Shown here piece after piece: positions 1,015-48,836 of a stretch of DNA of 48,865 nucleotides (the stretch's first letter is position 1; each line of letters starts with the position of its first letter). Origin of the DNA: Rickettsiales bacterium (GTDB lineage: Bacteria; Pseudomonadota; Alphaproteobacteria; Rickettsiales; SXRF01); NCBI GenBank assembly GCA_005792635.1, contig SXRF01000091.1, forward strand, positions 1-48,865. Reading direction: 5' to 3'. The translations under genes were made by a program, and so were the position numbers. The notes below the pieces were generated by a model that did not search any database, was not told the DNA's origin, and saw nothing but the letters and a program-made list of their open reading frames with translations.

Positions 1015-1217
1015 TTGCTGCCTTGTGTAATTTATATTTAAATATCATTTATAGATGGCAAAACTCTATTCTCTGCATTGTTAAATGGCAATAGATATGC
1101 TGTAGCAAACTGTAATTCTATTGTGCAATACAGCCAAAATATATAAAGGGGTGTAAAAAACCACACTTTTCAATAATCAACATTTACAGGATATTACAAA
1201 ACAAGAAGTGTAAAAAA

Positions 1218-4365: not shown

Positions 4366-4413
4366 GAAGGGGTTAAATAATAGGGAGTTTAACTCATAAC
4401 CAATTGAAAAATA

Positions 4414-4458
4414 TGGTGGCTCGGGGGTGATTTGAACACCCGACCAAGGGATTATGAT
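4414..4458 (-). repeat. att site: displaced 3' half of tRNA-Met (junction between island and prophage)
   Basis: 42/45 identical to 42038-42082; identity ends at the 5' edge of the anticodon loop. Confidence 0.95.
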
Positions 4459-11700: not shown

Positions 11701-11997
11701 TGTTATAACCTCTTGGTCGGGCGTTCCTGTGCGTTCTGCGAAGGTTATGCCTGTAAAATTATAGCTTCCATCAGAATTTTGCAGTGGAGTATTATCAAAA
11801 TAAATAGATTTTGCACCATCTACCAAGCCAACATTTTCTCCTTCGCCGAGCAACTCAATGGCACGAAGCGTGGCTTTGCTTTGAAGAGTATTTGGGGCTT
11901 CCTGAGCAATACGAGAAGAACCTCCGCCACCACCTTTCCCACCGCCGCCGCCTGAACCAGAAATAAATAATGGTAAAATATTGTCATTGCTAATCAC
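8713..11997 (-). CDS. Tail tip / central fibre protein (lambda gpJ-like)
   Basis: 1094 aa; GGGKGGGG, LLGEGE, YSNNPAW, EPRFTFNG, ACTSRGQAHRAG motifs; FN3-like segments. Confidence 0.93.
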   Translation of the reverse strand: MISNDNILPLFISGSGGGGGKGGGGGSSRIAQEAPNTLQSKATLRAIELLGEGENVGLVDGAKSIYFDNTPLQNSDGSYNFTGITFAERTGTPDQEVITGFHDVEEEKPEGVKVTHSIPIVRTITDYDTDAVRITIRIPALTEQNTSNGDLNGSQVAFKIEYQPNGGSYITAIEDTIVGKTVSPYEQQYRFNLTGSAPWNIRFTRVTPDNTAANIQNDIYWSSYTRIIDHKLIYPDDHIIGLEIDSSLFSNIPTRSYRVKGKIINVPSNYDPETREYTGVWDGTFQLAYSNNPAWVLYDLMINDRYGVGSLIVPYLPDKWALYECGQYSDEMVDNGAGGLEPRFTFNGIIQTQEDALRVLQTVASVMRAMVYWGVQGTSGVITVAQDSPKDPIKLITNSNVYNGSFNYSGSSLDVRHTACFISYTDLNDPKKIAVEVVEDQALIAKFGYRKKDIVAFACTSRGQAHRAGRSEIYSDCYLTEVVNFSTGLADADIAPSQILSVMDSDYSGVRFSGRIISVQDDAGSPLHYTGVTIDAPVTLASGESYTISMVMPDGMLAEIGIINSENQTDTLTFATPLTVAPLPSAVWVLTSSELAPRQFSVLAMQERSTAEFETTALLYDQNKYAYIDNGLHLPTLNYSKISRDIITPPSDLHIFEYLARNGQSVFSAATISWKSSNDSRVVRTELEARRPNGSNNYERVDSTSGVSVTIVNTIDGVWSFRARSFDALGRPSAYVYLENINLSINSTPPDDVTAFSITSMGNTSTLTWKKASNLNISHYEIRYSTVLTGAEWNSSVTVLDRISANSTTAIVPTRSGTWLIKAVTNPTDNYPSGIYSNNAALITTDIDALLNFNFVDELVEHPTFAGTKTNVEVSGSGNLELSPIFSGLDFVAYETQGTYDFPELDLGAIYTNRITPRIVASGNLRSNIADEWANVDEIVNVDGITDGQWKVEFQISTTNDDPSGSPVWSDYRIASIGDYNFRAVRPRVVLYSYFPTVTPSIEELSVQIDMPDLIQSGNDIVTDATGTNVIFGFAFKSTDPRLGIATQNMATGDYYTITAKSATGFSIRFFNAAGTGISRTFDYVAKGYGILTP

Positions 11998-12641
11998 AAT
12001 AATTTCTCCGTTGTAATCCCTGCACTAATGACAATACTGCCAACGACACATTCGCCGTAAATAATTGGAATTACCGCACCCTCTGCACCCCGATTTACAG
12101 GTGTACTAAACAAAAAAGATGCTCGTTGGTCTGGGGCTTCTCGGTTGCCATAATCACTTGCCTTTGGAGTTGGTGTCAGCATTTGCGAAACACCAGAGAA
12201 CGCCATTGAAAGACCAAGACCAGCGATATTTCCCCAAGTTACACCAAACCCAGCAACACTAAATGCTGATGTGCCAAATCCCGCTCCAATACCAACCCCA
12301 GCACCAACCGCAGAAAATGCACCATAAGTCGCAACACTGAGAAGGGCAATTCCAGCGATGGCTTTAATACCACCGCCATTTTTTGCGCCTATGGCAAGTG
12401 GTATGATATGAACCGCTTGCCGCTGACCAATTTGAAAATCCAGCGTTTGCTCTTCCAAATCTGTGCCATGCTCAAGATCACCAACTACTACGCGATAACT
12501 GCCATCTATGAAGTCACTGCGAAAACCCTTATAGTTCGCAGCGAGGGCGCGGGCAGCTTCTGGTGCGGTTACAATATCAAAACAATGTTTTGCCCCGTAC
12601 TTTTCTGCGAGGCTGCCATAAAGATGAATATTATGGAGCAT
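11994..12641 (-). CDS. Tail assembly protein (lambda gpI-like)
   Basis: IHLYGSLAEKYG ubiquitin-like start; VIPIIYGECVVGSIVIS end. Confidence 0.9.
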   Translation of the reverse strand: MLHNIHLYGSLAEKYGAKHCFDIVTAPEAARALAANYKGFRSDFIDGSYRVVVGDLEHGTDLEEQTLDFQIGQRQAVHIIPLAIGAKNGGGIKAIAGIALLSVATYGAFSAVGAGVGIGAGFGTSAFSVAGFGVTWGNIAGLGLSMAFSGVSQMLTPTPKASDYGNREAPDQRASFLFSTPVNRGAEGAVIPIIYGECVVGSIVISAGITTEKLL

Positions 12642-14434: not shown

Positions 14435-16198
14435 TTATACTGGGTTAAATAATCCGCCCGTACGCATCTGATTACGAGTTTCCTCGGCATAAACCATGCG
14501 TACTGAATTTTCCGCTACTTTAGCGACCTGCTCTAACAAGGCTGCATCGTTAACCCCGCGTCCACTGCCACCTTGCGTCATATTGAAAGTATTGTGAACG
14601 GTGAGACCGCCGTTATTTTCTGCAATCTGGTCATAGGGGACGATTGAGCCATTGATATTTGGCACAAAGCGTTCGCGCCCAAATTCACCAACATCATAAC
14701 TCATTCCAGCGAATACACTGCCACCATTGGCACGCGCACCGCCGAAATTAAAAGCAGTTTTTAATGTTCCTGTGATAAAATCATTTAGAGGTTCTGTAAC
14801 CGTCCTACGCAGCGCAATTTTCGCAACATCTTGTGCGAGAGACGCCAGCACTGTGCGGAGTTTTTCGCCTTTAACAACAGCATCTTCAAAAGCTGAGGTG
14901 AAGGTTAACCCTAAATCCTTGGCTGCATCTTTTAACTCGTTATTTTTCTCCGTGGCTTTTTCATATTCATCGCTGGCTTTTTTTAGGGCGCGATTATAGG
15001 TGTCTTGAGAAATTTCACCTGACATTAGAAAATTATCCAGCTTGTTAACTTCCGCCGAATATTTTTCTGCCGCCGTGCGCGTGTCATCATATATTTTTTG
15101 GGCTTCCTTCAACTCTTGATTTTGCTGCTTCTGTGCATCGGAAAGCCCTTTTAGCGCAGGAGGCTGAAAATTTATTTTCCCCTGACTCTTTGGCGGAGAG
15201 ATAGGACTGTAAAAAGTTACGCTTGATGATGTTTGCTCTAATTGTTTATTTAGATTTTCCAATTCTTGTTTATATTTATTATAAACTGCTGGGTCTTGCT
15301 CATCATTAAATGCTTTTTGTAATTTTGTTATGCGCTCAACAAGAAATGCGCGGCGGCGCAGAATCTCTTCCTGTCCGCTTAACTCATCTACAGGGATACG
15401 GAAATCGCTAGCGCGGGTAATCTTGCTCACCCCTTCAACAAATTCATTGAATTTTATGGCTTTGTCATAAGCAAATTCAAAACCATCAACAGCCAGTATT
15501 CTTAATTTTGCCGTAAGCTCTGCTACATGGTCATTATAGGCATCCATTTTTGCAGCTTGTTCTGGCGAAAGCACAAGATTTAGCTCTTTTGCTCGCTCCA
15601 TTGCATTACGAATGCCCTCTGCACCTTCAGAAAACAACGGGGCAAGGCTTGCACCTGATTTACCAAAAATATCCATTAGCGCACGAGTGCGATCAGAGTC
15701 ATCGCCTAATTTACTGATTTGTTCTGCAATGGTTAAAAACTGTTCTTCTGGTGATAGTTTTTTTATGTCAGAAAGCTTTATACCTAATTGTCCAAATATA
15801 TCAGTACCTTCAGATATATTTTTCTGCATTTTATTTATACTTTGTGCGACACTATCAAGGTCTGTTCCGCTTTGGTTGGCGGCAAGAGATAATTTTGATA
15901 ATGTTTCTACAGAAACTCCTGTTTGCTTGCTTAAATCATTAATATGGTCGCCCATGTCAATGGCGGATTTTATAAATCCTGCACTGAAATAAACTGAAGC
16001 AAAGCCTATCAATTTTCCTTTTGCTGTTTCAACAGTTCTTTGTAAATCGTTAAATTGCTTATTTATTAGACCAAGGCTGCGGTTCATCCGTGCTTGCCCG
16101 CTCGCCAACTGGTCACCAGCAGTTTTTACAGCTGCGGTGAATTTATCGGTTTTAAGATCTAAATCTGCGGATAAACTACCTATCTTTTGCGATGGCAT
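14435..16198 (-). CDS. Tape measure protein
   Basis: 587 aa helical protein between chaperones and gpM; IGSLSADL start, RANGG...VGEFGRERFVP, QMRTGGLF end. Confidence 0.92.
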   Translation of the reverse strand: MPSQKIGSLSADLDLKTDKFTAAVKTAGDQLASGQARMNRSLGLINKQFNDLQRTVETAKGKLIGFASVYFSAGFIKSAIDMGDHINDLSKQTGVSVETLSKLSLAANQSGTDLDSVAQSINKMQKNISEGTDIFGQLGIKLSDIKKLSPEEQFLTIAEQISKLGDDSDRTRALMDIFGKSGASLAPLFSEGAEGIRNAMERAKELNLVLSPEQAAKMDAYNDHVAELTAKLRILAVDGFEFAYDKAIKFNEFVEGVSKITRASDFRIPVDELSGQEEILRRRAFLVERITKLQKAFNDEQDPAVYNKYKQELENLNKQLEQTSSSVTFYSPISPPKSQGKINFQPPALKGLSDAQKQQNQELKEAQKIYDDTRTAAEKYSAEVNKLDNFLMSGEISQDTYNRALKKASDEYEKATEKNNELKDAAKDLGLTFTSAFEDAVVKGEKLRTVLASLAQDVAKIALRRTVTEPLNDFITGTLKTAFNFGGARANGGSVFAGMSYDVGEFGRERFVPNINGSIVPYDQIAENNGGLTVHNTFNMTQGGSGRGVNDAALLEQVAKVAENSVRMVYAEETRNQMRTGGLFNPV

Positions 16199-28733: not shown

Positions 28734-29222
28734 TTATTTTTGTTCTGGAATTTTGAAATGTTTTGCCAGCCTATTCAATCCATCTTGCAACAATGTATTC
28801 CTTCTTTTTTTACCAACTGCCACATCAATATATTTTGCCCATTCACCAATGCAAACGACATTATAAACAATCAGGCGGGTGACAACTGGTAGCTCCTTCA
28901 TTGCTATATTGTATTTTTCCTCCATCTGCTCTCTTGCTTCATAGTTAGGCTCTCCGCGAGGCTGGCGTGGGTCACGCACAGTTACATAGCCCGACTTCTC
29001 TGCGCCATAATACCACAAGCTATACAGTGTATTTGCTGCATCATATTGGTGTGATTTTATTAAACCGCGGTTATGATAATACTCAATCGGACATGTAGTC
29101 CTGTTGAACGCTACTCGGTGATTAGGCTCTATCTCAACACGCTCAACTACCTGCTGTTTATGAAACTCTGGTGTTCCGTAGTCTTTGCTGTCTTTTTTTA
29201 TTGTTTGTCTAGCTTTTTGCAT
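28734..29222 (-). CDS. Putative late transcription regulator (Q-position)
   Basis: RGLI...QYDAA, VVCIGE, LQDGLNRLAKHF C-terminal HTH; last early gene before late operon. Confidence 0.6.
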   Translation of the reverse strand: MQKARQTIKKDSKDYGTPEFHKQQVVERVEIEPNHRVAFNRTTCPIEYYHNRGLIKSHQYDAANTLYSLWYYGAEKSGYVTVRDPRQPRGEPNYEAREQMEEKYNIAMKELPVVTRLIVYNVVCIGEWAKYIDVAVGKKRRNTLLQDGLNRLAKHFKIPEQK

Positions 29223-30288
29223 TGGCAGAATCTCCTGTTGGCTGGGTGATGGGGAAAAATTTTGCGGTCATATCCGCGACAACTCCTGCGGTATGTGTTT
29301 TAGAAAGATGCGCGTATCGCTGCACCATCGCGGCAGATTTATGACCGAGTGCCGCGCCAATGTCGGCGGTTGTTCCGCCATTCATGGCGACATAGCTGGC
29401 AAAAGTGTGACGAAGGTCGTGAAAGTGGAAATTATTTATCTTGGCGCGAGCGAGCGCGGTGCGCCATTCTTTCTCAATATCAACTGGTAGGTTTCCAAAA
29501 CGCGAAGGAAAAACATAGTCGCTTTTCGGGTGACGCTTATGTTGTTTAAGCATTTCTAGGGCAACGCCCGTTATGAATAATGGACGGCGTTCATTGTTTT
29601 TGGATTCCTGCACTGTGGCGATGCCTCGTTCGAAATCAACATCCTGCCATTTTAGCGAAAGTATTTCCATTTTCCGCGCACCTGTGGAAAGTGCCAGCAT
29701 CACGATAAGTTCAAGCGGTTTGTGTTTTTCCAGCCGCACGGCACGAAGTAGTGCTTCGCGTTCAGCATCAGAAAGAAAGCGCACGCGCCCGCGGCTTTCT
29801 TTCAGCTTTTCCAGCCGCGCAATAGGTGATTGCTCCAGCCATGCCCAGACTTTTATGGCAGTGGTGAAGACATGGCTTAAAGCTGCCATATAGCGATTAG
29901 CGGTGGCATGGCTTACATTTTCCAGCAACTCATCGCGCTGTTTGGCAAGCAGCGCGGGCGTAACATGACTGAGGCGATATTCGCCAATTCGTGCCCACCA
30001 CCAGTTTAGTTGAGTTTCTTGCTGTTTTGTATAGCGCAGCTTTCGCGATTTATTCGGCATAACTGTTTTTAGATAATTGGCTATCATCTCACCAACCGAA
30101 TGCTGGTCGGCAGAATTGGTGAGCTGATATTTTCCGCTATTTATTTCCGTCTCTTTTTTGGCTGCCCATTCTCGCGCTTCGGTGAGGGTGTCAAATGTAG
30201 CCTTGATTGGCTTGAACCCCGCTCGGCGGACACTGGCGCGAAACCGCTTTCTTCCTTTCGGCGTGACGCGCTTTTCAAATGTTGCCAT
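29209..30288 (-). CDS. Second, internal tyrosine recombinase (same family as island integrase)
   Basis: LSTGARKMEI, ESKN, HDLRH, LGH, QRYAH all intact; GGAGG RBS. Confidence 0.93.
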   Translation of the reverse strand: MATFEKRVTPKGRKRFRASVRRAGFKPIKATFDTLTEAREWAAKKETEINSGKYQLTNSADQHSVGEMIANYLKTVMPNKSRKLRYTKQQETQLNWWWARIGEYRLSHVTPALLAKQRDELLENVSHATANRYMAALSHVFTTAIKVWAWLEQSPIARLEKLKESRGRVRFLSDAEREALLRAVRLEKHKPLELIVMLALSTGARKMEILSLKWQDVDFERGIATVQESKNNERRPLFITGVALEMLKQHKRHPKSDYVFPSRFGNLPVDIEKEWRTALARAKINNFHFHDLRHTFASYVAMNGGTTADIGAALGHKSAAMVQRYAHLSKTHTAGVVADMTAKFFPITQPTGDSANAKS

Positions 30289-32896: not shown

Positions 32897-33727
32897 TTAT
32901 CCGCCGATGTAAGTCGTAACCCCTGTCAGCTCCTTAAGTGCCGCACGAACGGCTTCCAGAGTTTCATCAATGGCTAGGTCAAAGCTGAGAAGTTGGACTT
33001 TGAAATCAGGCTTTGAAGCATCCGCAGATTGGCGCATGCGCCAGCTCATTTTTGCACGGAAGTTATAAGTAGGTATCTTCTTGGCTTCATCTTCAATAAG
33101 AGAATTAAGCACATTCAAACCATCAAATGGGGCGACCTGTACCGATAAGAATTCAGGTATTGAAACAGCCGTTAGTTTTGCACTACCGCCCTTAATTTCT
33201 TGGCGGTATGAGAATACCGTCCCATCCGCACCCATATTGCTTTCTGCCTGTGCATTTACTGTTGCGCGGAAATTTTTAACAATATCCAAAACATCAGCTT
33301 GCGAAGGATTAATAATCTCATCTAACCCGCTATCAAGGAAATCCGCAAAATCTTCCTGCGATTTCCATTGATTGTTGTTCTTTTCCCACAATTGCCAACG
33401 CTGCGAACGCTTGTAATGGAATTCTATCGCATGGTCGCACCATTTGGGATTTTCTTTTCCGTGGTAATCAAAAACCACCTGAATACGCTCACGGCTAGCA
33501 AAAGCGGCGGTGGTTTCAGTCTTGTATTGATTTACATATTCAACGAACCCTCGCAAATCATCAAACTTGCGCTTTTCTGATATGCGAATGGGCTGTGGTA
33601 AAAGATTTTCCAATTCATGAACTTTTTGGCTTGCGCCTATAACAATCGCAGGTTTTGCCACACCTTCTATTTTTTGAAGTGACACGCCACCATTTTGTAT
33701 AAATGTTTCAATGATATTATCAGTCAT
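32897..33727 (-). CDS. YfdQ/DUF2303 family protein
   Basis: FVEYVN, VFDYH...WCDH, SQEDFADFL, IPEFL...PFDG. Confidence 0.85.
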   Translation of the reverse strand: MTDNIIETFIQNGGVSLQKIEGVAKPAIVIGASQKVHELENLLPQPIRISEKRKFDDLRGFVEYVNQYKTETTAAFASRERIQVVFDYHGKENPKWCDHAIEFHYKRSQRWQLWEKNNNQWKSQEDFADFLDSGLDEIINPSQADVLDIVKNFRATVNAQAESNMGADGTVFSYRQEIKGGSAKLTAVSIPEFLSVQVAPFDGLNVLNSLIEDEAKKIPTYNFRAKMSWRMRQSADASKPDFKVQLLSFDLAIDETLEAVRAALKELTGVTTYIGG

Positions 33728-33752
33728 TTTTTAACCCTTTCATTATAGAATT

Positions 33753-34085
33753 TTATAGGCTTTTAACCAATGAAGCAGCGGGAGCTGTCATAGTCTTTAC
33801 GCTCTGGAAAAGCTCTGGTTGCTTGGGATTGCTATCAACCAAGTTGTTCTCTGGAGTGACAAACATAATTGACTCAATGGTGTCGCGCTCAGGAGCTTTG
33901 ATTTTGAATTTAATCCTAGTGAGCATCTCACCATCAAGTTTAGGCTTAAGGCTGATTTCTAGCGTCAGCTTACCTTCTTTTTGAAATTTGCTTACTGCAT
34001 CCACTAAACCGTGCATTTTTTCGCTTAATTGTGCGTCCAGATGCCCAGCCTTAAACTCTTTGAGGAAATTATAGAATTGTGTCAT
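33753..34085 (-). CDS. YfdP-like partner of DUF2303
   Basis: KEGKLTLEISLKP...FVTPENNL...NPKQPELF; typical neighbour of DUF2303 genes. Confidence 0.7.
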   Translation of the reverse strand: MTQFYNFLKEFKAGHLDAQLSEKMHGLVDAVSKFQKEGKLTLEISLKPKLDGEMLTRIKFKIKAPERDTIESIMFVTPENNLVDSNPKQPELFQSVKTMTAPAASLVKSL

Positions 34086-34146
34086 ATTGATAAGTCCTTA
34101 TAATAATTGTTAATATTATTTTTCTTCGTTGTTTTTTACTTATTCA

Positions 34147-34632
34147 TCACACTGTCCCTTTCGTTTCGTTGTTGACAAATGGCATGATGAGCTGTTTGGC
34201 GATTCGCGCTGCTTGCTCCACATCGTCAATTTCTTTCATCGCTTCTACCGCTTCATTATGCGTAATTCGCTTACCACCATCGGATGTCGCGCTGGTGAAC
34301 AGCAAAACCTTGGCACTGCACTCACCAAGTTCTTTGCTGATTTGTAAAATTTGCTGGGTAATGCTGCGCTTTGGCGCGGTCGGCTCGGGTGCGTGGAAAC
34401 TCCGCATGAAGAATGCGGTGATTGGCGGAATTGCGCCAGTTGCTTCAAAATAGGCTTGGTCAAGCGCGAAACATTGCTGCAAATTCAGCATAAAATCATC
34501 ATCAGGGTCGCTCGCTTTGTAAAGCAAGCTAGCCGATTTCCCCAAAACCTTCGCGCAAGGCTCAACTCCCAGCTCCGCCATAATCAGCGTCATAGCATGA
34601 TGAATAGTGTCAGGAATGCGTGGCTTGCTCAT
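34147..34632 (-). CDS. CII-family regulatory protein
   Basis: HTH CAKVLGKSASLLYKASDPD; KELGE...DGGKRITHNEA; downstream of cro. Confidence 0.65.
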   Translation of the reverse strand: MSKPRIPDTIHHAMTLIMAELGVEPCAKVLGKSASLLYKASDPDDDFMLNLQQCFALDQAYFEATGAIPPITAFFMRSFHAPEPTAPKRSITQQILQISKELGECSAKVLLFTSATSDGGKRITHNEAVEAMKEIDDVEQAARIAKQLIMPFVNNETKGTV

Positions 34633-35108
34633 GCTGCACCACCTTCAGCGTTGGCGGAGGGATTGCCTCCGCCGCTGCCTTCCCCTATAGTTCGGTCGCT
34701 CTGACTAGGAGCAAACAACCAACTAAAAGGAGAATTCAATGTTAGATGATGAGCAAATAGCGAAAGTTGAACGAGTGATAACCCGAGTGATATTAGAACA
34801 AATTGCTGTTGTCGCGCTATCAAGCTTACCAAACGAAGGGAGGCAGAACTTAATGAATCAATTTCAAAATTTTTCTCCTGAGATGTATGGAGCAACTGCT
34901 GAGCAAAAGGCTGGTGTCCAGAAATCTGTTCAGAATTTTTGGAAGGATTTAGACAAAGCACTTTCTCATCATGACCTTCCTCAGTCGGATTAAAAATACC
35001 ACCCCTACGCATCTGGTTACTAGCTTCTTCGGCATAAACCCTACCCACGGAGTTTTCTGCAACTTTGGTAAGTTGCTCCAGCAATTCTTTGTATGATGGT
35101 TCGCTCAT
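34629..35108 (-). CDS. Early protein with N-terminal copy of tape-measure C-terminus
   Basis: ATGA-coupled to cro and cII; residues 9-41 are 25/33 identical to the TMP C-terminus. Confidence 0.8.
   Translation of the reverse strand: MSEPSYKELLEQLTKVAENSVGRVYAEEASNQMRRGGIFNPTEEGHDEKVLCLNPSKNSEQISGHQPFAQQLLHTSQEKNFEIDSLSSASLRLVSLIARQQQFVLISLGLSLVQLSLFAHHLTLNSPFSWLFAPSQSDRTIGEGSGGGNPSANAEGGAA
34663..34691 (+). promoter_or_regulatory. sigma70 promoter antisense to the early lytic operon (PRE-like position)
   Basis: TTGCCT-17 bp-TATAGT upstream of the 84-aa ORF. Confidence 0.7.
34739..34993 (+). CDS. Small helical protein antisense to lytic operon (moron-like)
   Basis: 84 aa; AAGGAG RBS 34727-34732; own promoter. 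Confidence 0.7.
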   Translation: MLDDEQIAKVERVITRVILEQIAVVALSSLPNEGRQNLMNQFQNFSPEMYGATAEQKAGVQKSVQNFWKDLDKALSHHDLPQSD

Positions 35109-35338
35109 TCTAAACCACCTGTGATATTGGAATGGTTAATTGTGGTTAAATGTGGCATATTATTTGCAAACCAGTTCATTACTTTTTGATAGGTTTTTGT
35201 TGTGCATCCACCACCTGCTTCTATGCGGTCAAAGAATTTTCCGTCATTTACGATGGTGGTTGCTAGAGTTGAACGCGCTTTACCTGTCTGCTTGCAATAA
35301 GCATCAGCGGCATTGAGCATATTTTTTGTAAAATCCAT
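35105..35338 (-). CDS. Cro-like repressor
   Basis: Short HTH protein divergent from cI; ARSTLATTIVNDGKFFDRIEAG. Confidence 0.8.
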   Translation of the reverse strand: MDFTKNMLNAADAYCKQTGKARSTLATTIVNDGKFFDRIEAGGGCTTKTYQKVMNWFANNMPHLTTINHSNITGGLE

Positions 35339-35370
35339 TACTTTACCTATGGGGATGTGAAGACTTCGCT

Positions 35371-35449
35371 ATATTCGGTAAATAAACCGTATTTGTCAAC
35401 GGTAATTTTACCTAATGACATAATATTTTTAATTAGGGAAAATCCCGAA
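35371..35449. promoter_or_regulatory. OR region: three operators, PR and PRM
   Basis: TTCGGTAAATAAACCGTA 35374, AACGGTAATTTTACCTAA 35398, TTAGGGAAAATCCCGAA 35433; PR TTGACA-17-GAATAT (minus); PRM ATGACA-17-GAAAAT (plus) 8 nt before cI ATG. Confidence 0.75.
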
Positions 35450-35451
35450 CT

Positions 35452-36096
35452 ATGAAAACAATTCTAAGTCGCGAACAAAAAATAGATTTTATCCAACAAC
35501 GCATGAAAGAGCTTGGGCTTAATCAGCGTAGCGTTGCGCTGTCAGCTGGTCTTCACGAAGATGCGTTACGCAATTTTTTTCGTGGCAAAAGCAAAAATCT
35601 ACGCTCTGATATTTACGAAAAGCTTATGGATGTTTTGCAGCCAAATGAGGAAGTTGTTTTACATTCTCATAAAGGAGAAGAAGAAACCACTCGTATCCCT
35701 GTTTATGACATAAGGGCATCAGCAGGCGGTGGAGTGGTAATTCAAGAAGAAAATATCCTTTATCACACGACATTTAGTTTGGATTTTTTACGGCGGGTGA
35801 GCAGTTCTCCACTGGAAATGCTGTCAGTGATTACTGTGGATGGTGATAGTATGCAGCCCACATTATCACCAGAAGATACTGTGTTGATTGACCGCTCGCA
35901 AATCACTCCCAAAAAAGATGGCATTTATGTTTTGCGTTATGATAATTCTTTGTTGGTAAAGCGTTTAAGCTATGACCCGCAACGGCGCATAGTGACAATT
36001 ATCAGTGATAATGACCGCTACCCACCGCGTGATATTAGCGATCTAGATTGCTTACAAATAATTGGCAGAGTTTTATGGTTAGGGCGCAGGGTATAG
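35452..36096 (+). CDS. CI-like repressor (HTH + S24 autopeptidase)
   Basis: HTH, ASAGGG cleavage site, GDSMQP, LVKRL. Confidence 0.95.
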   Translation: MKTILSREQKIDFIQQRMKELGLNQRSVALSAGLHEDALRNFFRGKSKNLRSDIYEKLMDVLQPNEEVVLHSHKGEEETTRIPVYDIRASAGGGVVIQEENILYHTTFSLDFLRRVSSSPLEMLSVITVDGDSMQPTLSPEDTVLIDRSQITPKKDGIYVLRYDNSLLVKRLSYDPQRRIVTIISDNDRYPPRDISDLDCLQIIGRVLWLGRRV

Positions 36097-36121
36097 GAAA
36101 CCTAAATAATCGAGGTGAATA

Positions 36122-36967
36122 ATGTCAGAAAATGAAAAATTGATTGTGTTTAACCAAAAATCAATCCGTCGCATTTTGCATAAAAATAAATGGTGGTTTT
36201 CAGTAATTGATGTTGTCGGAGCTTTAACGGATAGTATTGATGCTGGGGCGTATTGGCGCAAGCTAAAACAGCGTCTAAACGAGGAAGAAAGTGAGGTCGT
36301 GACATTTTGTCACGGACTGAAACTAGAAGCATCGGATGGGAAAAAATATGTTACCGATTGCGCCAATACCGAGTCACTTTTTCGCATAATTCAATCAATC
36401 CCTTCTCCCAAAGCTGAGCCTTTTAAGCAATGGTTAGCAAAAGTTGGGTATGAGAGAATCCAAGAAATAGAAGACCCAGAACTAGCAAGTAAGAGAGCAA
36501 AGGCTTTATATAAAGCCAAAGGTTATAGTGAGGATTGGATAGAAAAACGGATGCGGAGCATCGCCATTCGTGAAGAACTTACCGATGAGTGGAAAAATAG
36601 AGGTGTAAAGGAGAGCAAGGAGTTTTCTATACTCACCGCCGAAATTTCCAAAGCAGCGTTTGGAATGCCTCCTTCTGAGTATAAAAAGCATAAAAACCTA
36701 AAGCGAGAAAATCTGCGTGATCATATGAATGATTTAGAGCTAATTTTTTCAATGCTTGGTGAAGCCTCAACCACCGAAATCACTCGCAACAAAGATGCAA
36801 AAGGTTTTCGTGAAAATTATCAAGCTGCACAAGAAGGTGGCAGCATTGCAGGTAATGCCCGCAAGGAGCTTGAAACTAAAAGCGGTCGCCCTGTAATCAG
36901 CAAACAAAATTATTTGCCAAAAACTAAAGGCAAAAGATTGGTAAAAAAACGAGAGGAATTAAAATAG
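36122..36967 (+). CDS. Bro-N domain protein
   Basis: WWFSVIDVV, YWRKLKQRL, RIIQSIPSPKAEPFKQWLA, NLRDHM. Confidence 0.85.
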   Translation: MSENEKLIVFNQKSIRRILHKNKWWFSVIDVVGALTDSIDAGAYWRKLKQRLNEEESEVVTFCHGLKLEASDGKKYVTDCANTESLFRIIQSIPSPKAEPFKQWLAKVGYERIQEIEDPELASKRAKALYKAKGYSEDWIEKRMRSIAIREELTDEWKNRGVKESKEFSILTAEISKAAFGMPPSEYKKHKNLKRENLRDHMNDLELIFSMLGEASTTEITRNKDAKGFRENYQAAQEGGSIAGNARKELETKSGRPVISKQNYLPKTKGKRLVKKREELK

Positions 36968-40915: not shown

Positions 40916-41968
40916 ATGCCAAAACCCCGCAATAGTGAAAATAAAGGGCTGCCAGTTCGCTGGAAAAAGGCACATGGAGCATATTATTACAATGTTCCTG
41001 TTGGACTTGAGGCGTTATGGGATGGCAAAAAACTTTTTCGCCTTGGGAAAACCCTGCCAGAAGCCTATAAAGAATGGGCAAAGCGGTTAGAAAATTTGGA
41101 TAAAGCCAATACTATTGCACAGTTGCTTGACCGCTATTCATTGGAGGTGATACCCACGAAAGCTATTGCAACTCAAAGCGGAAACGTCCGTGAGATTAAA
41201 AATTTACGAGCGGTTTTTGGACACATGGCACTTACTGCAATTCAGCCACAGGATATTTATAAATATGCCGATAAGCGTGGGGCAAAAAATAGAGGCAGAA
41301 AAGAAATAGCCCTGTTGAGCCACGCATTTACCAAAGCCGTGGAATGGGGATATATCAATCGCCACCCCTTCAAAGGTGAAGTCCGTCTGCAAATTGGAAA
41401 ACCGCGCACCCGCTATATTGAGGATTGGGAATTAAACGAAGCACTATTACTTTCCGCCCCAAAAGAAAAGGGTGGGGTGGCAATGGTGCAAGCATATATC
41501 CAACTCAAACTGATGCTGGGATTGCGTCAGGGAGATATGTTAAGGCTGAAAGAGGCTGATATTCAGGAAGATGGGATTCATGTTACGCCAAATAAAACCA
41601 AAAACAGCACGGGAAAATCTATAATTTACGAATGGAGCGATGATTTACGCCTCGCTGTTGAAAAAGTCAGATCCACCCGCCCACCAGATATTTCAAAATG
41701 GTTATTCTGCGACCGCTTTGGCAAATGCTACATCAACGAAGAAACAGGCAAGGCTGAGGGGTGGTCTTCTATATGGCAAAGATTTATGGAAAGGGTGCTT
41801 GCTGAAACCAAGGTTAAAGATCGTTTTACTGAGCATGATTTACGAGCAAAAGTCGCCAGTGATGCAGTGGATGTTGAGCGGGCGAGGGAATTATTATCAC
41901 ACTCAGACAGTAAAATTACTGAGCGAGTTTATCGCCGAAAAGCAATCATAATTAAGCCGTCAAAATAA
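40916..41968 (+). CDS. int: Prophage tyrosine integrase
   Basis: GLRQGD, NKT, HDLRAK, LSH, RVYRR; adjacent to att/tRNA. Confidence 0.95.
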   Translation: MPKPRNSENKGLPVRWKKAHGAYYYNVPVGLEALWDGKKLFRLGKTLPEAYKEWAKRLENLDKANTIAQLLDRYSLEVIPTKAIATQSGNVREIKNLRAVFGHMALTAIQPQDIYKYADKRGAKNRGRKEIALLSHAFTKAVEWGYINRHPFKGEVRLQIGKPRTRYIEDWELNEALLLSAPKEKGGVAMVQAYIQLKLMLGLRQGDMLRLKEADIQEDGIHVTPNKTKNSTGKSIIYEWSDDLRLAVEKVRSTRPPDISKWLFCDRFGKCYINEETGKAEGWSSIWQRFMERVLAETKVKDRFTEHDLRAKVASDAVDVERARELLSHSDSKITERVYRRKAIIIKPSK

Positions 41969-42037
41969 AATTCTATAGTACACTGCCCTATTATTGGTAC
42001 ATAGATAAAAATAGAACCCTCTAAAACTGTTAAAATA

Positions 42038-42112
42038 TGGTGGCTCGAGGGGGATTTGAACCCCCGACCAAGGGATTATGATTCCCCTGCTCTACCACTG
42101 AGCTACCGAGCC
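42038..42112 (-). tRNA. tRNA-Met(CAT), probably elongator; contains prophage att
   Basis: GGCTCGGTAGCTCAGTGGTAGAGCAGGGGAATCATAATCCCTTGGTCGGGGGTTCAAATCCCCCTCGAGCCACCA folds as a cloverleaf; G1-C72 pair excludes fMet; Ile2 not fully excluded. Confidence 0.93.
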
Positions 42113-42212: not shown

Positions 42213-42806
42213 CTAAGCGGCAAGCCAATCTTTCACTCGCTTCTTAGCTTTTTCAAACTGCATAACATTAGCGATGCGGTTGTCCAGAAAACGCCAAGTG
42301 TTTTCCTGCCCTGCGCTGGTATCATTAAGCCACACTAGCAATGTTGAAGAATAAACCCCTGCCAGCGTTAAGCGTTTGGTGTAAAAATTAAAATCGGTGG
42401 ATTTATCGCCAATTGCATACCAAATATTATCCACGGTTTCGTATAAAGCGCGTAGTCCGCGATGGGCATATAATGGGTTGGAATGCATGGCGACAGTTTT
42501 GCGAACGGCTTCGCGGTGTGGCGTTTGCAGCTCAAGGCGCAGGCGCACGGCGGCGGCTATTCGTTCGCGTATTTTCATATTTTCCAGATGGTAGTGTGAT
42601 AACGCTTCTAGCATTTGCGCGTCAACCATGCTGCTATGAGCGTCCACCGCGTCAATCGCACCAGCAGGAAACACGCGCACAACGACGGTTTTTTTATAGC
42701 CCGCTTCCTCGGCGGCTTTGCCAAGTGTTTGCGTATTCCAGCCTTCAAACGGCACAAGCGGCAAGGCTTTTTCTATAATCTCGGTAGTGGCTTTTTGTTT
42801 GTCCAT
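42213..42806 (-). CDS. COQ9 family (rpsU-divergently transcribed) protein
   Basis: LVPFEGW, KIRERI, IWYAIGDKSTDFNFYTKRLTL. Confidence 0.9.
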   Translation of the reverse strand: MDKQKATTEIIEKALPLVPFEGWNTQTLGKAAEEAGYKKTVVVRVFPAGAIDAVDAHSSMVDAQMLEALSHYHLENMKIRERIAAAVRLRLELQTPHREAVRKTVAMHSNPLYAHRGLRALYETVDNIWYAIGDKSTDFNFYTKRLTLAGVYSSTLLVWLNDTSAGQENTWRFLDNRIANVMQFEKAKKRVKDWLAA

Positions 42807-42829
42807 TTTTGCCCCAATCTTCAATCTAT

Positions 42830-43426
42830 CTATATCTTAAAGCGTTCCGCAAGCCGCAGGTGAATATCCGCAACGATTGGGCGGTGGTCTTCGCGTCCGA
42901 CTTGCGCAAATTCATCACTGCTCATCCATTGGCGTTGTGCGGTGGTTTTATCGATTTTATCGTCTGGCAAAAAATCACTTTTATCAATTACTTCCGCCGC
43001 GAACATCCATAATTGTTTAAGCTTGCCAGTGGATGCGGAGGAGAAATGATATGAGCCAAGGTCAAACAGGCTAATTATATTAATAAAATTAAGCCCCAAT
43101 TCCTCGCGTCCCTCACGCAGGGCGGTTTCCACCAATAATTCGCGTTGATATTCGGCTGGTTCGCCGTCTTTCATGTCGCGCCATCCGATACCCTCGAAAT
43201 AATGCATCCGCGTACCTTTGCAGATTTGGAATTCTGGGGCGGCGAGTTCGGCGCGGGCGGCGGCTGGCTTCATAACAAAATACTCAAGCCCTGCGCGTTT
43301 TATAAAAGGTAGAATTCCGATTTTTAATATCTTATCAGGCGGCTGGCGCAGAGCAACGCTATCAACCAGAGAAACAACTGTTTGCTGTTGCAGAAAATCC
43401 TGAATCGTGGCACGGTCATCCATCAT
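42830..43426 (-). CDS. NUDIX hydrolase
   Basis: TALREGREELGL Nudix box. Confidence 0.75.
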   Translation of the reverse strand: MMDDRATIQDFLQQQTVVSLVDSVALRQPPDKILKIGILPFIKRAGLEYFVMKPAAARAELAAPEFQICKGTRMHYFEGIGWRDMKDGEPAEYQRELLVETALREGREELGLNFINIISLFDLGSYHFSSASTGKLKQLWMFAAEVIDKSDFLPDDKIDKTTAQRQWMSSDEFAQVGREDHRPIVADIHLRLAERFKI

Positions 43427-43465
43427 AGAAACTTTTTTGAAACAATTTTATTGGGAGCTATAATT

Positions 43466-44263
43466 TTGCAAGCAAATATTTACAATGATTTTGCGAGTTT
43501 AGCAAACCAATTAGCAGATGCAAGCGGCGAAGTTTTGCGTTCATGGTTTCGAAAGCCTGTTGGTGTGGAAAGCAAGGCGGACACAAGCCCAGTGACCGAG
43601 GCGGACAGGGCGGTGGAAAGCGTTATTCGGGCGCGTATTGAGGCGGTTTTCCCAGCGCACGGAATTATTGGCGAGGAATTTGGCAATCTGCGCGGCGAAA
43701 GCGAATATCAATGGGTGATTGACCCGATTGATGGGACTCGCGCTTTTATGTCGGGTTTCCCAACCTTTACCACGCTTATTTCCTTGCTGCATAATGGCGT
43801 TCCAGTTGTTGGCGTTATTGACCAGCCAATTTTGCGCGAAAGATGGCTCGGCGTTGCTGGAAATGCCACGGCTTGCAATGTAAATAGCGTGCGAAAAATC
43901 GTCAAAACTCGCGCAGAAAACCTCTCCGCGCAAACGCTGATTGGCACAACTTCCGCACCTTATTATTTTAGCGTGGATGAGGCGATGGCGTTTGAAAGAG
44001 TGCGGAAAATTTGCTCGCATACGAATATTGGCGGCGATGCTTATGGTTATGCCATGCTCGCCAGCGGTCAGTTTGATTTATTCGTGGATGTTTGCCTGAA
44101 ACCTTATGATTTTTGCGCTCTTGTGCCTGTTATTGAAGGGGCAGGGGGCATCATCACCGATTGGGCGGGAAATCCACTAACCCTAGCCTCCGACGGCAAG
44201 GTAATCGCCAGCGCGAACAGGAAAACACACGACAAAGCTTTGGAGGCTTTGGCGGGAAGATGA
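43466..44263 (+). CDS. hisN: Inositol monophosphatase family, histidinol-phosphatase-like
   Basis: PVTEAD, GEE, WVIDPIDGT, YDFCAL...EGAGG; start taken at TTG 43466. Confidence 0.8.
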   Translation: MQANIYNDFASLANQLADASGEVLRSWFRKPVGVESKADTSPVTEADRAVESVIRARIEAVFPAHGIIGEEFGNLRGESEYQWVIDPIDGTRAFMSGFPTFTTLISLLHNGVPVVGVIDQPILRERWLGVAGNATACNVNSVRKIVKTRAENLSAQTLIGTTSAPYYFSVDEAMAFERVRKICSHTNIGGDAYGYAMLASGQFDLFVDVCLKPYDFCALVPVIEGAGGIITDWAGNPLTLASDGKVIASANRKTHDKALEALAGR

Positions 44264-46032: not shown

Positions 46033-46073
46033 GATTTCCCGCCACTTGTCACTCACCACTTATCACTAAAAAG

Positions 46074-46463
46074 CTATTTTTTATCGGTAGGAGCTGGTGC
46101 AGTAGGCGGCATCGGGTTCTTGTTCTGACGATATGAATCCATTCTCGCCTTGCGGAAAGCTTCCCATTCTTCCTTGGTTACTTTGCCGTCTTTATTTGCA
46201 TCGCGCTCATCAAATTTCTTCGCGCCGAAAGCAGCCGATTCTTCTTTGCTGATTACGCTATCTTTATTGGTATCCATTTCTTCGAATACGCGCTCCATGT
46301 GCTTGCCTGCGCGGTCTTTATTGCCGCCCATCATGCTGCCATCGTGCATCGGCATTGCGGCTGGTGCTTGAGTTGGTGGTGTAGCTGCTGGTGCAGGATC
46401 TTGTGCGAAAGACGCAGTTGAAATGGTAGCGAGAACTAAGGCTATAGTTAGTGAAGTTTTCAT
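46074..46463 (-). CDS. Secreted EF-hand protein
   Basis: Signal peptide ending ASFA; DTNKDSVISKEE and DANKDGKVTKEE. Confidence 0.85.
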   Translation of the reverse strand: MKTSLTIALVLATISTASFAQDPAPAATPPTQAPAAMPMHDGSMMGGNKDRAGKHMERVFEEMDTNKDSVISKEESAAFGAKKFDERDANKDGKVTKEEWEAFRKARMDSYRQNKNPMPPTAPAPTDKK

Positions 46464-46557
46464 GGCAAATCTCCAATGTTTTTGCTGGTTGTGGGTGCTT
46501 GTAAAGTAACAAGCCAATGTTTTTTACTACTGTGTATAGAAGTTTGCAAATCTATTA

Positions 46558-48645: not shown

Positions 48646-48836
48646 AAAATTCCCTAAATAACTCAATATCATCTGCCTATGACATATAATATTTAAGGAA
48701 TGATTAAAAAAAGATGGTTCAAGTCAAGGAATTGCACAATTGTTTTTGCAAATCTATTGTTGCATTTTGTGTGGCAGTGCATTAGAACGCCATATCTGAA
48801 ATACGCTTGGATTTGGTTTTGGGGTTGATTTTCTGG

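What the first reader, a model, noticed from the sequence alone, without database searches (positions are those of the whole stretch)
34986..35108. Early gene encodes a protein-level mimic of the phage's own tape-measure C-terminus
Seen: the ORF coupled right after cro starts MSEPSYKE-LLEQLTKVAENSVGRVYAEEASNQMRRGGIFNP. The TMP 20 kb away ends LLEQVAKVAENSVRMVYAEETRNQMRTGGLFNPV (14441-14539). The ungapped match is 25/33, and 13 of the 25 identical residues use different synonymous codons, so the copy is not recent and looks selected as protein. Known: the C-terminus of lambda-type TMPs (QMRxGGLF) docks in the tail-tip complex, and the prophage defence protein Tab blocks tail assembly through the TMP. 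Inference: the phage makes a TMP-tail decoy before late genes are expressed, to titrate a tail-assembly inhibitor or TMP sensor, or to modulate tail initiation. I know of no described system like this.
Basis: partly seen in the sequence, partly recalled or inferred. Interest (0 to 1): 0.9.

Follow-up and report, generated by a model that had tools for sequence, protein, structure and literature searches.

The report
Early gene copies tape-measure tip helix
A prophage early gene begins with an old, protein-level copy of the last 33 residues of the phage's own tail tape-measure protein; the duplication is real and unusual, but its proposed role as a decoy in tail assembly is untested.

Summary
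Residues 9-41 of the ORF that follows the cro-like gene (34629-35108, minus strand) match the last residues of the phage's tape-measure protein (TMP, 14435-16198) at 25 of 33. Thirteen of the identical residues use different codons. BLASTP gives E 7e-14, and these are the only two such places in the 1.95-Mb genome. The copied piece is the module that, in lambda gpH, forms the coiled coil in the tail-tip lumen, plus the invariant QMRxGG motif.

Divergence is mostly at third codon positions (16 of 25 mismatches), and synonymous sites are saturated. Neutral drift after an in-genome duplication is rejected (P about 5e-4). A recent graft from a diverged foreign TMP allele is not excluded. The ORF has a Shine-Dalgarno site and ATGA overlaps with both neighbours, the cro-like and cII-like genes.

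An 84-residue ORF lies antisense inside it. It has its own Shine-Dalgarno and promoter-like site and a confident helical fold. The layout recalls Tab/anti-Tab, without sequence similarity.

No relative carrying the early copy was found, so conservation and co-variation could not be tested. No expression or binding data were obtainable. The decoy function remains a hypothesis (about 0.35).

The parts
34986..35084 (-). TMP-like module: residues 9-41 of the early ORF (LLEQLTKVAENSVGRVYAEEASNQMRRGGIFNP)
   Evidence: 25 of 33 residues identical to TMP 554-586, E 7e-14. The DNA repeat D4 is 74% identical. The module retains the QMRxGG motif, which is invariant in all 6 aligned sequences including lambda gpH. 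AlphaFold2 predicts a helix at residues 6-35.
35085..35120 (-). Start of the early ORF: AGGTGG Shine-Dalgarno (35115-35120), 6-nt spacer, ATG at 35106-35108 overlapping the cro-like stop as ATGA, then 8 codons with no TMP similarity
   Evidence: Read directly from the sequence. The same AGGTGG-plus-6-nt arrangement precedes the cII-like start.
34629..35108 (-). Early ORF of 159 codons, open from the cro-like stop to the cII-like start, with ATGA overlaps at both ends
   Evidence: In the same-phase antisense frame of 25 phage genes, stops occur at 0.0566 per codon, giving P(84 codons open) = 0.0075. Residues 42-123 are codon-neutral (LLR 0.002 per codon), while residues 1-41 and 124-159 look coding-like. 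AlphaFold2 mean pLDDT is 57.4, with residues 39-84 disordered and a helix at 84-125. The maximum Kyte-Doolittle 19-residue hydropathy is 1.65 at residue 104.
34739..34993 (+). 84-residue ORF, antisense inside the early ORF and pointing the same way as the cI-like repressor gene
   Evidence: AAAGGAG lies 7 nt before the ATG. A promoter-like site lies upstream. AlphaFold2 from the single sequence gives mean pLDDT 79.8 and a four-helix model. Codon LLR is 0.220 per codon, above all 161 shadow windows and within the lowest 6% of 160 true-gene windows. No homologue, family or fold match was found.
34663..34691 (+). Promoter-like site TTGCCT-17-TATAGT, 48 nt upstream of the 84-residue ORF
   Evidence: A consensus scan gave 9 of 12 matches. 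The scan found 6 sites in the region against 3.2 expected from shuffles, so this is weak evidence on its own.
34653..34673 (.). GC-rich hairpin (8-bp stem, 5-nt loop) just upstream of the cII-like Shine-Dalgarno, inside the last codons of the early ORF
   Evidence: The sequence is conserved upstream of a 33%-identical cII-like gene in genome G273, where a 12-bp hairpin forms in a shifted register (z -3.3).
14441..14539 (-). C-terminal module of the tape-measure protein, the source or paralogue of the early copy
   Evidence: It aligns with lambda gpH 824-849 (weak score).
14435..16198 (-). Tape-measure protein gene (587 aa)
   Evidence: It matches 25 PHROG families, many annotated as tail length tape measure protein (e.g. 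phrog_8462, E 1.1e-25); the top hit, phrog_13338, has unknown function. phrog_1538 covers residues 484-582. It is followed by gpM-, gpL-, gpK-, gpI- and gpJ-type genes.
11994..12641 (-). gpI-type tail assembly protein, the expected seat of the TMP tip helix
   Evidence: phrog_32, E 5.6e-48. The role is inferred from the lambda structure (PMC10721106).
35105..35338 (-). cro-like first gene of the early operon (77 aa), named by position
   Evidence: It is divergent from the cI-like gene. It matches phrog_7669 (unknown function, E 6.2e-16) and has no Pfam hit.
34147..34632 (-). cII-like regulator gene (161 aa)
   Evidence: PF06892 Phage_CP76, E 8.7e-6, 26.1 bits against a cut-off of 26. Also phrog_38866 and phrog_101.
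35452..36096 (+). cI/LexA-like repressor gene (214 aa)
   Evidence: Peptidase_S24, E 2.2e-17, and HTH_3.

Best explanation
The early ORF is translated. Its first 41 residues carry a functional protein-level copy of the TMP tip module: the terminal coiled-coil helix plus the QMRxGG(L/I)FNP tail. This is the part of a lambda-type TMP that sits in the tail-tip lumen on the gpI plug.

Because it is made from the early lytic operon before TMP exists, it most likely acts as a competitor (decoy) for something that binds this helix. The most economical candidate partner is the 84-residue protein encoded antisense in the same locus, on the repressor's strand and with its own promoter-like site. The pair would then work like Tab/anti-Tab or Tai/Ati: a prophage-expressed blocker of tail assembly, and a lytic-cycle antidote that here works by mimicking the blocker's target.

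The four substitutions specific to the copy (R22G, M23R, T29A, R30S) fall at positions i, i+1, i+7, i+8. That is one face of the helix, and these positions are invariant in the three TMPs. They would keep the decoy itself out of the tail tip.

Shown: the paralogy, its age, protein-type divergence, the translation signals, the module-exact boundaries and the antisense gene pair. Inferred: translation, any binding, the partner's identity and any effect on tails.
For: 1. Paralogy: 25 of 33 residues, E 7e-14, and the only two such places in the genome.
2. Protein-type divergence: mismatches fall 16/7/2 on codon positions 3/1/2, P 0.0024. The Nei-Gojobori estimate gives 17.5 synonymous differences over 22.2 sites and 8.5 non-synonymous over 76.8 sites.
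3. In 20,000 simulations where the TMP lineage takes only synonymous changes and the copy drifts neutrally, 8 or fewer amino-acid differences with no stop occurred at frequency 5e-4.
4. The copy shares 7 residue states with its own TMP against P0005 and P0006. It is 25/33 identical to its own TMP but 19/33 to each of those two. It therefore derives from this TMP lineage.
5. The boundaries match the structural unit. Similarity starts at the predicted helix and ends 1 codon before the TMP stop. The aligned lambda gpH segment is the resolved coiled coil on the gpI trimer.
6. Translation signals: an AGGTGG Shine-Dalgarno with a 6-nt spacer, ATGA overlap with the upstream stop, and a frame open all the way to an ATGA overlap with the cII-like start. 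The chance of a same-phase antisense frame staying open over 84 codons is 0.0075.
7. The 84-residue antisense ORF looks real: Shine-Dalgarno, promoter-like site, pLDDT 79.8, and a codon score above all 161 shadow windows.
8. Precedent for the layout. In JBD26, the 83-residue Tab is on the opposite strand with its own promoter. Anti-Tab overlaps the preceding lytic gene by 1 bp and binds Tab, and Tab sensitivity maps to the TMP C-terminal part (PMC10884400, section 8 and passages). The annotated genes 30 and 31 overlap convergently by 47 nt. Tai/Ati in phi80 also pairs a defence with a lytic-cycle antidote that binds it (PMC11364771, sections 10 and 12).
Against: This is a single lineage. No other protein or locus with the early copy was found in any search, so conservation and co-variation are untested.

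The only two TMPs sharing this C-terminus (P0005, P0006) are known as proteins only. Their contigs could not be fetched.

A prophage in G273 has a 33%-identical cII-like gene and the same cro / coupled ORF / convergent small ORF / hairpin layout. It has no TMP-type motif, and its post-cro ORF has no paralogue in that genome.

The last 45 residues of lambda gpH hit 262 places in 256 phage records. Of the 60 rows shown, the 2 rows with two places are records of about 89 kb. Early copies are therefore not general.

The 84-residue ORF is not similar to Tab (no alignment at E <= 100). The early ORF is not similar to anti-Tab. Anti-Tab is not a sequence mimic of the JBD26 TMP (best E 2.9). PADLOC gives no hit for either ORF.

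Four of the 8 differences lie on the copy's branch at TMP-invariant positions, against 1 on the TMP branch and 3 ambiguous. This fits relaxed constraint as well as it fits a changed surface.

Residues 42-123 of the early ORF have non-gene-like composition (amino-acid LLR 0.018 against a range of 0.146-0.534 for real genes).
Confidence: 0.35

Rival explanations
1. Recombination relic. The 98-nt segment was grafted fairly recently from the 3' end of a diverged TMP gene of another phage. The synonymous differences then record divergence between two working TMPs, and the copy has no function of its own. The long ORF stays open only so that ribosomes travel from cro to cII, which provides coupling and avoids polarity.
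For: The codon pattern alone cannot tell this apart from selection on the copy (one search tests only an in-genome duplication). The copy's branch carries 4 radical changes at positions invariant in 3 TMPs, against 1 on the TMP branch, as expected for decay. Mosaic joints in phages often lie at gene ends (general knowledge), and the similarity ends 1 codon before the TMP stop. Residues 42-123 of the ORF look non-coding by composition. No relative shows the copy conserved.
Against: No donor was found. The profile search of 1.84 billion representative proteins returned 4 hits at E <= 0.001: the window's own two proteins and 2 repeat proteins. The only other TMPs with this ending are more distant from the copy (19/33) than its own TMP is (25/33). 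The fragment is in frame behind an ATG with a Shine-Dalgarno site and an ATGA overlap to cro, and it covers exactly one structural module. No further remnant of tail genes lies beside it.
Confidence: 0.25
2. Exapted oligomerisation domain. The TMP helix was recruited simply as a trimer-forming coiled coil at the N-terminus of an early protein, possibly membrane-anchored through residues 104-122. The job of that protein has nothing to do with tails.
For: In lambda the homologous segment is a three-helix coiled coil (PMC10721106). AlphaFold2 predicts a helix at 6-35, a disordered linker at 39-84 and a long hydrophobic helix at 84-125; hydropathy is 1.65 at residue 104, at the usual membrane threshold. 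The copy-specific changes lie on one helix face, at positions invariant in the three TMPs. That the coiled-coil core positions are kept is my heptad reading of the alignment, not a computed result. The ORF is open and coupled at both ends.
Against: The QMRxGG(I)FNP tail is not part of the coiled coil, yet it is kept: 10 of the 11 positions from N31 to P41 are identical to at least one of the three TMPs. The C-terminal two thirds have poor coding statistics and a low-confidence model (pLDDT 57.4). There are no homologues.
Confidence: 0.2
3. Injection interference. The early protein displays the TMP tip, the first part of a TMP to leave the tail, and so occupies the host factor that this tip needs. 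This would exclude superinfecting relatives during lytic growth.
For: The TMP exits the tail tip first on infection (PMC11101478, passages). There is a possible membrane helix. The gene is expressed early, by its position in the operon.
Against: No signal peptide or periplasmic targeting was examined or seen. No comparative or experimental support exists. Exclusion genes of temperate phages are usually expressed from the prophage, whereas this one lies on the lytic strand (general knowledge).
Confidence: 0.1
4. Nucleic-acid-level function: a recombination substrate, an antisense regulator of TMP mRNA, or a template/variable repeat pair of a diversity-generating retroelement.
For: The two repeats are 98 nt long, one of them at the 3' end of a tail gene. 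A convergent transcript from the 84-residue gene could run antisense through the copy.
Against: Both copies lie on the same strand, so their mRNAs cannot pair. Identity is 74%, and the longest exact run I read in the alignment is about 12 nt. Mismatches concentrate at third codon positions (16 of 25) and show no adenine bias (T7, C6, G6, A6). The genome has no reverse transcriptase: PF00078 gave 0 matches, while the control rang in 3 of 14 genomes.
Confidence: 0.03

Closest known systems
C-terminal tip module of lambda-type tape-measure proteins (lambda gpH residues about 818-853)
   Same: The sequence is homologous, and QMRxGG is invariant across the copy, its own TMP, P0005, P0006, a high-GC viral-contig TMP and lambda gpH. 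A helix is predicted. The phage has the full gpM/L/K/I/J tip gene set.
   Different: The copy is the N-terminus of a 159-codon early-operon ORF, 20.5 kb from the tail genes, not the C-terminus of a TMP. It carries four changes at positions invariant in the three TMPs.
Tab / anti-Tab of Pseudomonas phage JBD26 (PMC10884400)
   Same: Both have a small ORF (83 against 84 residues) on the strand opposite the lytic genes with its own promoter, convergent with and overlapping a lytic-strand ORF that overlaps the preceding gene's end. The target of Tab is the C-terminal part of a TMP, and the antidote binds the blocker.
   Different: There is no sequence similarity to Tab or anti-Tab. The location is between the cro-like and cII-like genes, not between the terminase genes. 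Anti-Tab does not resemble its TMP, so target mimicry would be a new mode. Here the overlap is total (252 nt) rather than 47 nt. No function has been shown here.
Tai / Ati tail-assembly inhibition and counter-defence (phi80; PMC11364771)
   Same: A prophage-borne blocker of tail assembly is paired with an adjacent antidote expressed in the lytic cycle that binds it. The genes are arranged so that expression is coordinated (abstract, section 12).
   Different: Tai escape mutations map to the central tail fibre J or the tail needle, not the TMP (section 10). No similarity to Tai or Ati was tested directly. PADLOC (2023) gave no hit.
Diversity-generating retroelement template/variable repeats
   Same: Two repeats of about 100 nt, one at the 3' end of a tail gene.
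   Different: There is no adenine-specific mismatch pattern and no reverse transcriptase in the genome.

Membership tests
Lambda-type TMP C-terminal tip module | Sequence homology to the last ~35 residues of a lambda-type TMP, including QMRxGG | tested here: met
   25/33 residues identical to its own TMP, E 7e-14. QMRxGG is invariant in all 6 aligned sequences, including lambda gpH.
Lambda-type TMP C-terminal tip module | Lies at the C-terminus of a long tape-measure protein, just upstream of gpM/gpL-type genes | tested here: not met
   The copy is residues 9-41 of a 159-codon ORF between the cro-like and cII-like genes. The genuine TMP is at 14435-16198.
Lambda-type TMP C-terminal tip module | Forms a trimeric coiled coil seated on the gpI plug in the tail tip | not testable with these tools
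Only a single-chain helix prediction is available. The lambda structure was read in PMC10721106.
Tab / anti-Tab | Sequence similarity to Tab (83 aa) or anti-Tab of JBD26 | tested here: not met
   No BLASTP alignment at E <= 100 for either pair. tblastn of the 84-residue ORF against 50,697 phage records found no match.
Tab / anti-Tab | Blocker on the opposite strand with its own promoter, convergent with an antidote gene that overlaps the preceding lytic gene | tested here: inconclusive
   The gene geometry is met. The promoter is only a 9/12 consensus match. The JBD26 geometry was seen and in section 8 of the paper.
Tab / anti-Tab | [quoted passage not shown] | tested here: not met
   The locus lies between the cro-like and cII-like genes. 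[quoted passage not shown]
Tab / anti-Tab | Blocker stops tail assembly through the TMP C-terminal region; antidote binds the blocker | not testable with these tools
   This needs binding and phage assays.
Known defence-system proteins (PADLOC-DB 2.0.0) | Profile match of the early ORF or the 84-residue ORF | tested here: not met
   0 families for either ORF at E <= 0.01. The library dates from 2023 and may lack Tab and Tai.
Diversity-generating retroelement | Mismatches confined to adenines of one repeat | tested here: not met
   The 25 mismatches are spread as T7, C6, G6, A6 in the early copy and A7, C7, T6, G5 in the TMP copy.
Diversity-generating retroelement | Reverse transcriptase gene present | tested here: not met
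   PF00078 gave 0 matches in the genome (completeness 100). The control rang in 3 of 14 genomes.
Lambdoid immunity/early region | Divergent cI-like repressor and first early gene, followed by a cII-like regulator | tested here: met
   Peptidase_S24 plus HTH_3 repressor. PF06892 CII at 26.1 bits against a cut-off of 26. The cro-like gene is named by position only.

The most novel reading that the evidence does not exclude
The cro-cII interval holds a self-contained tail-assembly blocker and antidote encoded on opposite strands of the same DNA. The 84-residue protein, made from the prophage, would bind the tip helix of incoming relatives' TMPs and stop their tails from forming. The early ORF, made first in the phage's own lytic cycle, would neutralise it by presenting a copy of that helix. 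One face of the copy is altered so that it stays out of the tail tip itself. This would be counter-defence by mimicry of the phage's own structural protein, evolved by duplicating the target.
Probability: 0.13. Interest if true: 0.85.

Novelty: new variant of a known kind. Interest (0 to 1): 0.55.

Why it matters
Defences that block tail assembly (Tab, Tai) and their phage-borne antidotes were described only in 2024, and how the antidotes recognise their blockers is unknown. A lytic-cycle protein that carries a copy of the blocker's target would give a simple evolutionary route to an antidote: duplicate the epitope. It would also give a sequence-based way to find such pairs, by searching each phage for internal copies of the ends of its structural proteins. 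Even if the function lies elsewhere, the locus is a clear case of a virion-protein module reused in an early gene. It also shows two apparently real ORFs fully overlapping in antisense. At present this is one lineage with no functional data, so its weight rests on experiments.

Tried and rejected
Searches for relatives of the early ORF all came back empty or held only the window's own proteins.
- The word-indexed protein search at lengths 87-279 returned only the ORF itself, 1 hit among 43 candidates.
- The same search at lengths 30-86 with residues 1-45 found no candidate.
- Six-frame search of 43 other genomes of the same family gave 6 chance-level matches outside residues 9-41 (E 0.017-0.29).
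- A 4-row profile of the module was run against 400 genomes of the order. Only 2 other genomes matched, at E 0.003-0.006 per genome, which is chance at that number.
- A 2-row profile was run against 1.84 billion representatives. It gave 4 hits at E <= 0.001: 2 were the window's own proteins and 2 were repeat proteins.
- tblastn of the 42 residues against 50,697 phage records gave 1 hit at E 9.
- Viral contigs searched with the ORF gave 0 confirmed of 16 pattern matches.
- A degenerate DNA motif for NQMRxGGxxNP in viral contigs found 1 place, the C-terminus of an unrelated high-GC TMP.

TMP relatives. Only P0005 and P0006 share the C-terminus. Scans with the 3-TMP alignment found only distant N-terminal matches: 1 locus in genome contigs, 0 in viral contigs and 8 in metagenome contigs. 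tblastn against phages gave 125 records, none covering the C-terminus among the 30 rows listed.

Early-region relatives.
- The cII-like protein gave 0 confirmed of 15 pattern matches in viral contigs and no match in phages.
- In the order sample it matched 2 other genomes of 401 genomes searched, G000 included. These were examined.
- The cro-like protein gave 3 distant phage records.
- DNA of 33500-36200 had no match in phages.

The 84-residue ORF. It had no Pfam, PHROG or PADLOC hit. The order search gave 2 chance-level matches in 400 genomes, and phages gave none. Foldseek against PDB and BFVD found nothing at E <= 0.001. The best VIA-align score was Z 6.6, to chorismate-mutase-type helices, which is within the noise stated for helical models. 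The ESM Atlas gave no usable hit for the early ORF.

Readings rejected. The diversity-generating retroelement reading is rejected. An antisense or recombination role is disfavoured, because both copies are on the same strand and identity is 74%. The amino-acid composition and codon tests could not decide whether residues 42-159 of the early ORF are a functional protein.

Literature. Four full-text searches, plus the passages read, turned up no description of an early-gene copy of a TMP end. In PMC13581612, 'decoy' refers to proteomics, and Avs18 senses a central TMP segment. Supplementary Fig. 4 of PMC10884400, on the TMP C-terminal differences, could bear on which residues Tab reads.
Full report
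THE OBSERVATION. The window is one whole contig (C74, 48,865 bases) of a 1.95-Mb genome in 128 contigs. On the minus strand, an ORF of 159 codons (34629-35108) starts MSEPSYKELLEQLTKVAENSVGRVYAEEASNQMRRGGIFNPT. The 587-residue ORF at 14435-16198 ends LLEQVAKVAENSVRMVYAEETRNQMRTGGLFNPV.

Residues 9-41 of the first match residues 554-586 of the second at 25 of 33 positions without gaps. Thirteen of the 25 identical residues use different codons, and nucleotide identity is 73 of 99. BLASTP gives E 7e-14. A six-frame search of the whole genome finds only these two places. An all-against-all comparison of 882 open fragments of the window finds no other match between early and late regions. DNA similarity is limited to 34987-35084 against 14442-14539.

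CONTEXT. The long ORF is a tape-measure protein. It matches 25 PHROG families, many annotated as TMP. It is followed by gpM-, gpL-, gpK-, gpI- and gpJ-type genes, so the phage has a lambda-type tail tip.

The prophage is bounded by a 51-nt direct repeat (4408-4458 and 42032-42082). The right copy is the 3' part of a tRNA-Met gene, and an integrase gene lies beside it.

The immunity region has a LexA/cI-like repressor gene on the plus strand (35452-36096). Diverging from it on the minus strand are a 77-residue first early gene (35105-35338, 'cro' by position only), the 159-codon ORF, and a cII-like gene (34147-34632, PF06892 at the cut-off).

The 159-codon ORF overlaps both neighbours as ATGA. 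It has an AGGTGG Shine-Dalgarno site 6 nt before its ATG, the same arrangement as the cII-like gene.

WHAT WAS COPIED. A search of solved structures aligned TMP 556-585 with lambda gpH 824-849 (weak score). A six-sequence alignment shows QMRxGG invariant in the early copy, its own TMP, the two metagenomic TMPs P0005 and P0006, a high-GC viral-contig TMP and lambda gpH.

In the lambda virion, gpH residues 818-842 form a three-helix coiled coil in the tail-tip lumen, supported by a gpI trimer that plugs the tube (PMC10721106, passages; PMC11101478, passages).

The early copy starts where AlphaFold2 predicts a helix (6-35) and ends 1 codon before the TMP stop. It is therefore a module-exact copy of the TMP tip.

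HOW IT EVOLVED. The 25 mismatches fall 16, 7 and 2 on codon positions 3, 1 and 2 (chi-square P 0.0024). The Nei-Gojobori counts are 17.5 synonymous differences on 22.2 sites (saturated) and 8.5 non-synonymous on 76.8 sites.

I simulated an in-genome duplication in which the TMP copy accepts only synonymous changes and the early copy drifts. Eight or fewer amino-acid differences with no stop occurred at frequency 5e-4.

The only other TMPs with this ending are P0005 and P0006. They are 19/33 identical to the copy and 22-23/33 identical to the window's TMP. The copy shares seven states with its own TMP against both. The copy thus stems from this TMP's lineage.

Of the eight differences, four lie on the copy's branch (R22G, M23R, T29A, R30S). 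All four are at positions invariant in the three TMPs, spaced i, i+1, i+7, i+8, which is one helix face. One lies on the TMP branch and three are ambiguous.

This can be read in two ways: a deliberately altered surface, or relaxed constraint. One caveat cannot be removed with the data at hand. If the segment was grafted recently from a diverged foreign TMP allele, the synonymous differences would reflect selection on two TMPs, not on the early copy. No such donor was found anywhere.

THE OTHER STRAND. Antisense inside the early ORF lies an 84-codon ORF (34739-34993, plus strand, the repressor's direction). It has AAAGGAG 7 nt before its ATG and a promoter-like TTGCCT-17-TATAGT site 48 nt upstream.

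From its sequence alone, AlphaFold2 gives a four-helix model with mean pLDDT 79.8. The early ORF scores 57.4: its residues 39-84 are disordered and 84-125 form a hydrophobic helix.

On codon usage, the 84-codon ORF scores 0.220 per codon. That is above all 161 same-phase shadow windows and within the lowest 6% of 160 true-gene windows. Residues 42-123 of the early ORF score 0.002, below every true window and above every shadow window.

In this phase relation, stops occur at 0.0566 per codon in the antisense of real genes. An 84-codon open stretch therefore has P 0.0075. Whichever ORF is taken as real, the other being open is unusual. My reading is that both are kept open. The early ORF is translated through to the cII-like start, for a protein function, for coupling, or for both. 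Neither ORF has any homologue, family or fold match.

COMPARISON WITH KNOWN SYSTEMS. Tab of Pseudomonas phage JBD26 is an 83-residue protein encoded on the opposite strand with its own promoter. It blocks tail assembly, and sensitivity maps to the C-terminal part of the TMP. Anti-Tab overlaps the preceding lytic gene by one base and binds Tab (PMC10884400: passages, section 8). In the JBD26 record, genes 30 and 31 overlap convergently by 47 nt.

Tai/Ati of phi80 is a second blocker/antidote pair acting on tail assembly (PMC11364771: abstract, sections 10 and 12).

The geometry here is the same in kind, but the membership tests fail. The 84-residue ORF shows no similarity to Tab, and the early ORF shows none to anti-Tab. 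The location is different. Anti-Tab itself does not resemble its TMP. If the local pair is a blocker and antidote, target mimicry would be a new mode.

HOW GENERAL IS IT. It is not general, as far as I could see. The last 45 residues of lambda gpH hit 262 places in 256 phage records. Of the 60 rows shown, the two with two places are records of about 89 kb.

The nearest early-region relative found is a prophage in G273 with a 33%-identical cII-like gene. It has the same layout: an ORF coupled to cro, a convergent small ORF, and a conserved GC-rich hairpin before cII. It has no TMP-type motif, its post-cro ORF has no paralogue in that genome, and its small ORF is unrelated to the 84-residue one.

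VERDICT. I put 0.35 on the reading that the early ORF's N-terminus is a working copy of the TMP tip that competes for a ligand of that helix. Within that, I put about 0.13 on the specific idea that the ligand is the antisense-encoded 84-residue protein. A recombination relic gets 0.25, an exapted coiled coil in an unrelated early protein 0.20, injection interference 0.10, and a nucleic-acid-level role 0.03.

The finding deserves a bench test. It is one lineage with no functional evidence, so the interest score is 0.55.

Noticed in passing
window 4408-4458 and 42032-42082; tRNA-Met 42038-42112 (-): A 51-nt direct repeat (94% identical) bounds the prophage. The right copy is the 3' part of a tRNA-Met gene, next to the integrase gene at 40916-41968. 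A second integrase gene (3060-4127) lies just left of the left repeat, which suggests another element inserted in tandem at the same site.
   Followed up: partly
window 29209-30288 (-): A third tyrosine-integrase gene (phrog_1, E 3e-69) lies inside the phage, between the early genes and the packaging genes. Its product is 43% identical over 360 residues to that of 3060-4127. Its role there is unexplained.
   Followed up: no
window 34653-34673; L028 about 1358-1385: A GC-rich hairpin just upstream of the cII-like Shine-Dalgarno is sequence-conserved (CAGCGGCGGnGGCAATCCCnCCGC) in a prophage of genome G273 whose cII-like protein is only 33% identical. There the stem forms in a shifted register (12 bp, z -3.3). 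This is probably a conserved RNA or DNA element of the early transcript, of nut or terminator type.
   Followed up: partly
L028 (G273:C2:7729-11127) 959-1255 (+) and 1104-1307 (-): This distant relative also has an ORF ATGA-coupled to its cro-like gene and a small convergent ORF (67 codons from an internal ATG) between cro and cII. The interval may be a recurrent slot for antisense gene pairs. The proteins are unrelated to those of the window.
   Followed up: partly
window 36122-36967 (+): The Bro-N domain protein next to the repressor gene matches the PADLOC candidate defence family PDC-S13 over its full length (E 2.1e-125).
   Followed up: no
window 20210-20733 and 47735-48459: There are tandem repeats of about 173 nt inside the 882-codon ORF at 18244-20892. 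There are also repeats of about 135 nt inside the autotransporter gene at 46558-48672.
   Followed up: no
L032 (JBD26) 13377-13628 (+) and 13582-13833 (-): The annotated anti-Tab and Tab genes overlap convergently by 47 nt. Anti-Tab shows no sequence similarity to the JBD26 TMP (best E 2.9).
   Followed up: yes
window 42213-48672: The host genes to the right of the prophage encode a COQ9-domain protein, a NUDIX protein, RecJ and an autotransporter. The cro-like protein's only phage relatives are in Agrobacterium and Rhizobium phages. This hints at an alphaproteobacterial host, which I could not confirm.
   Followed up: no
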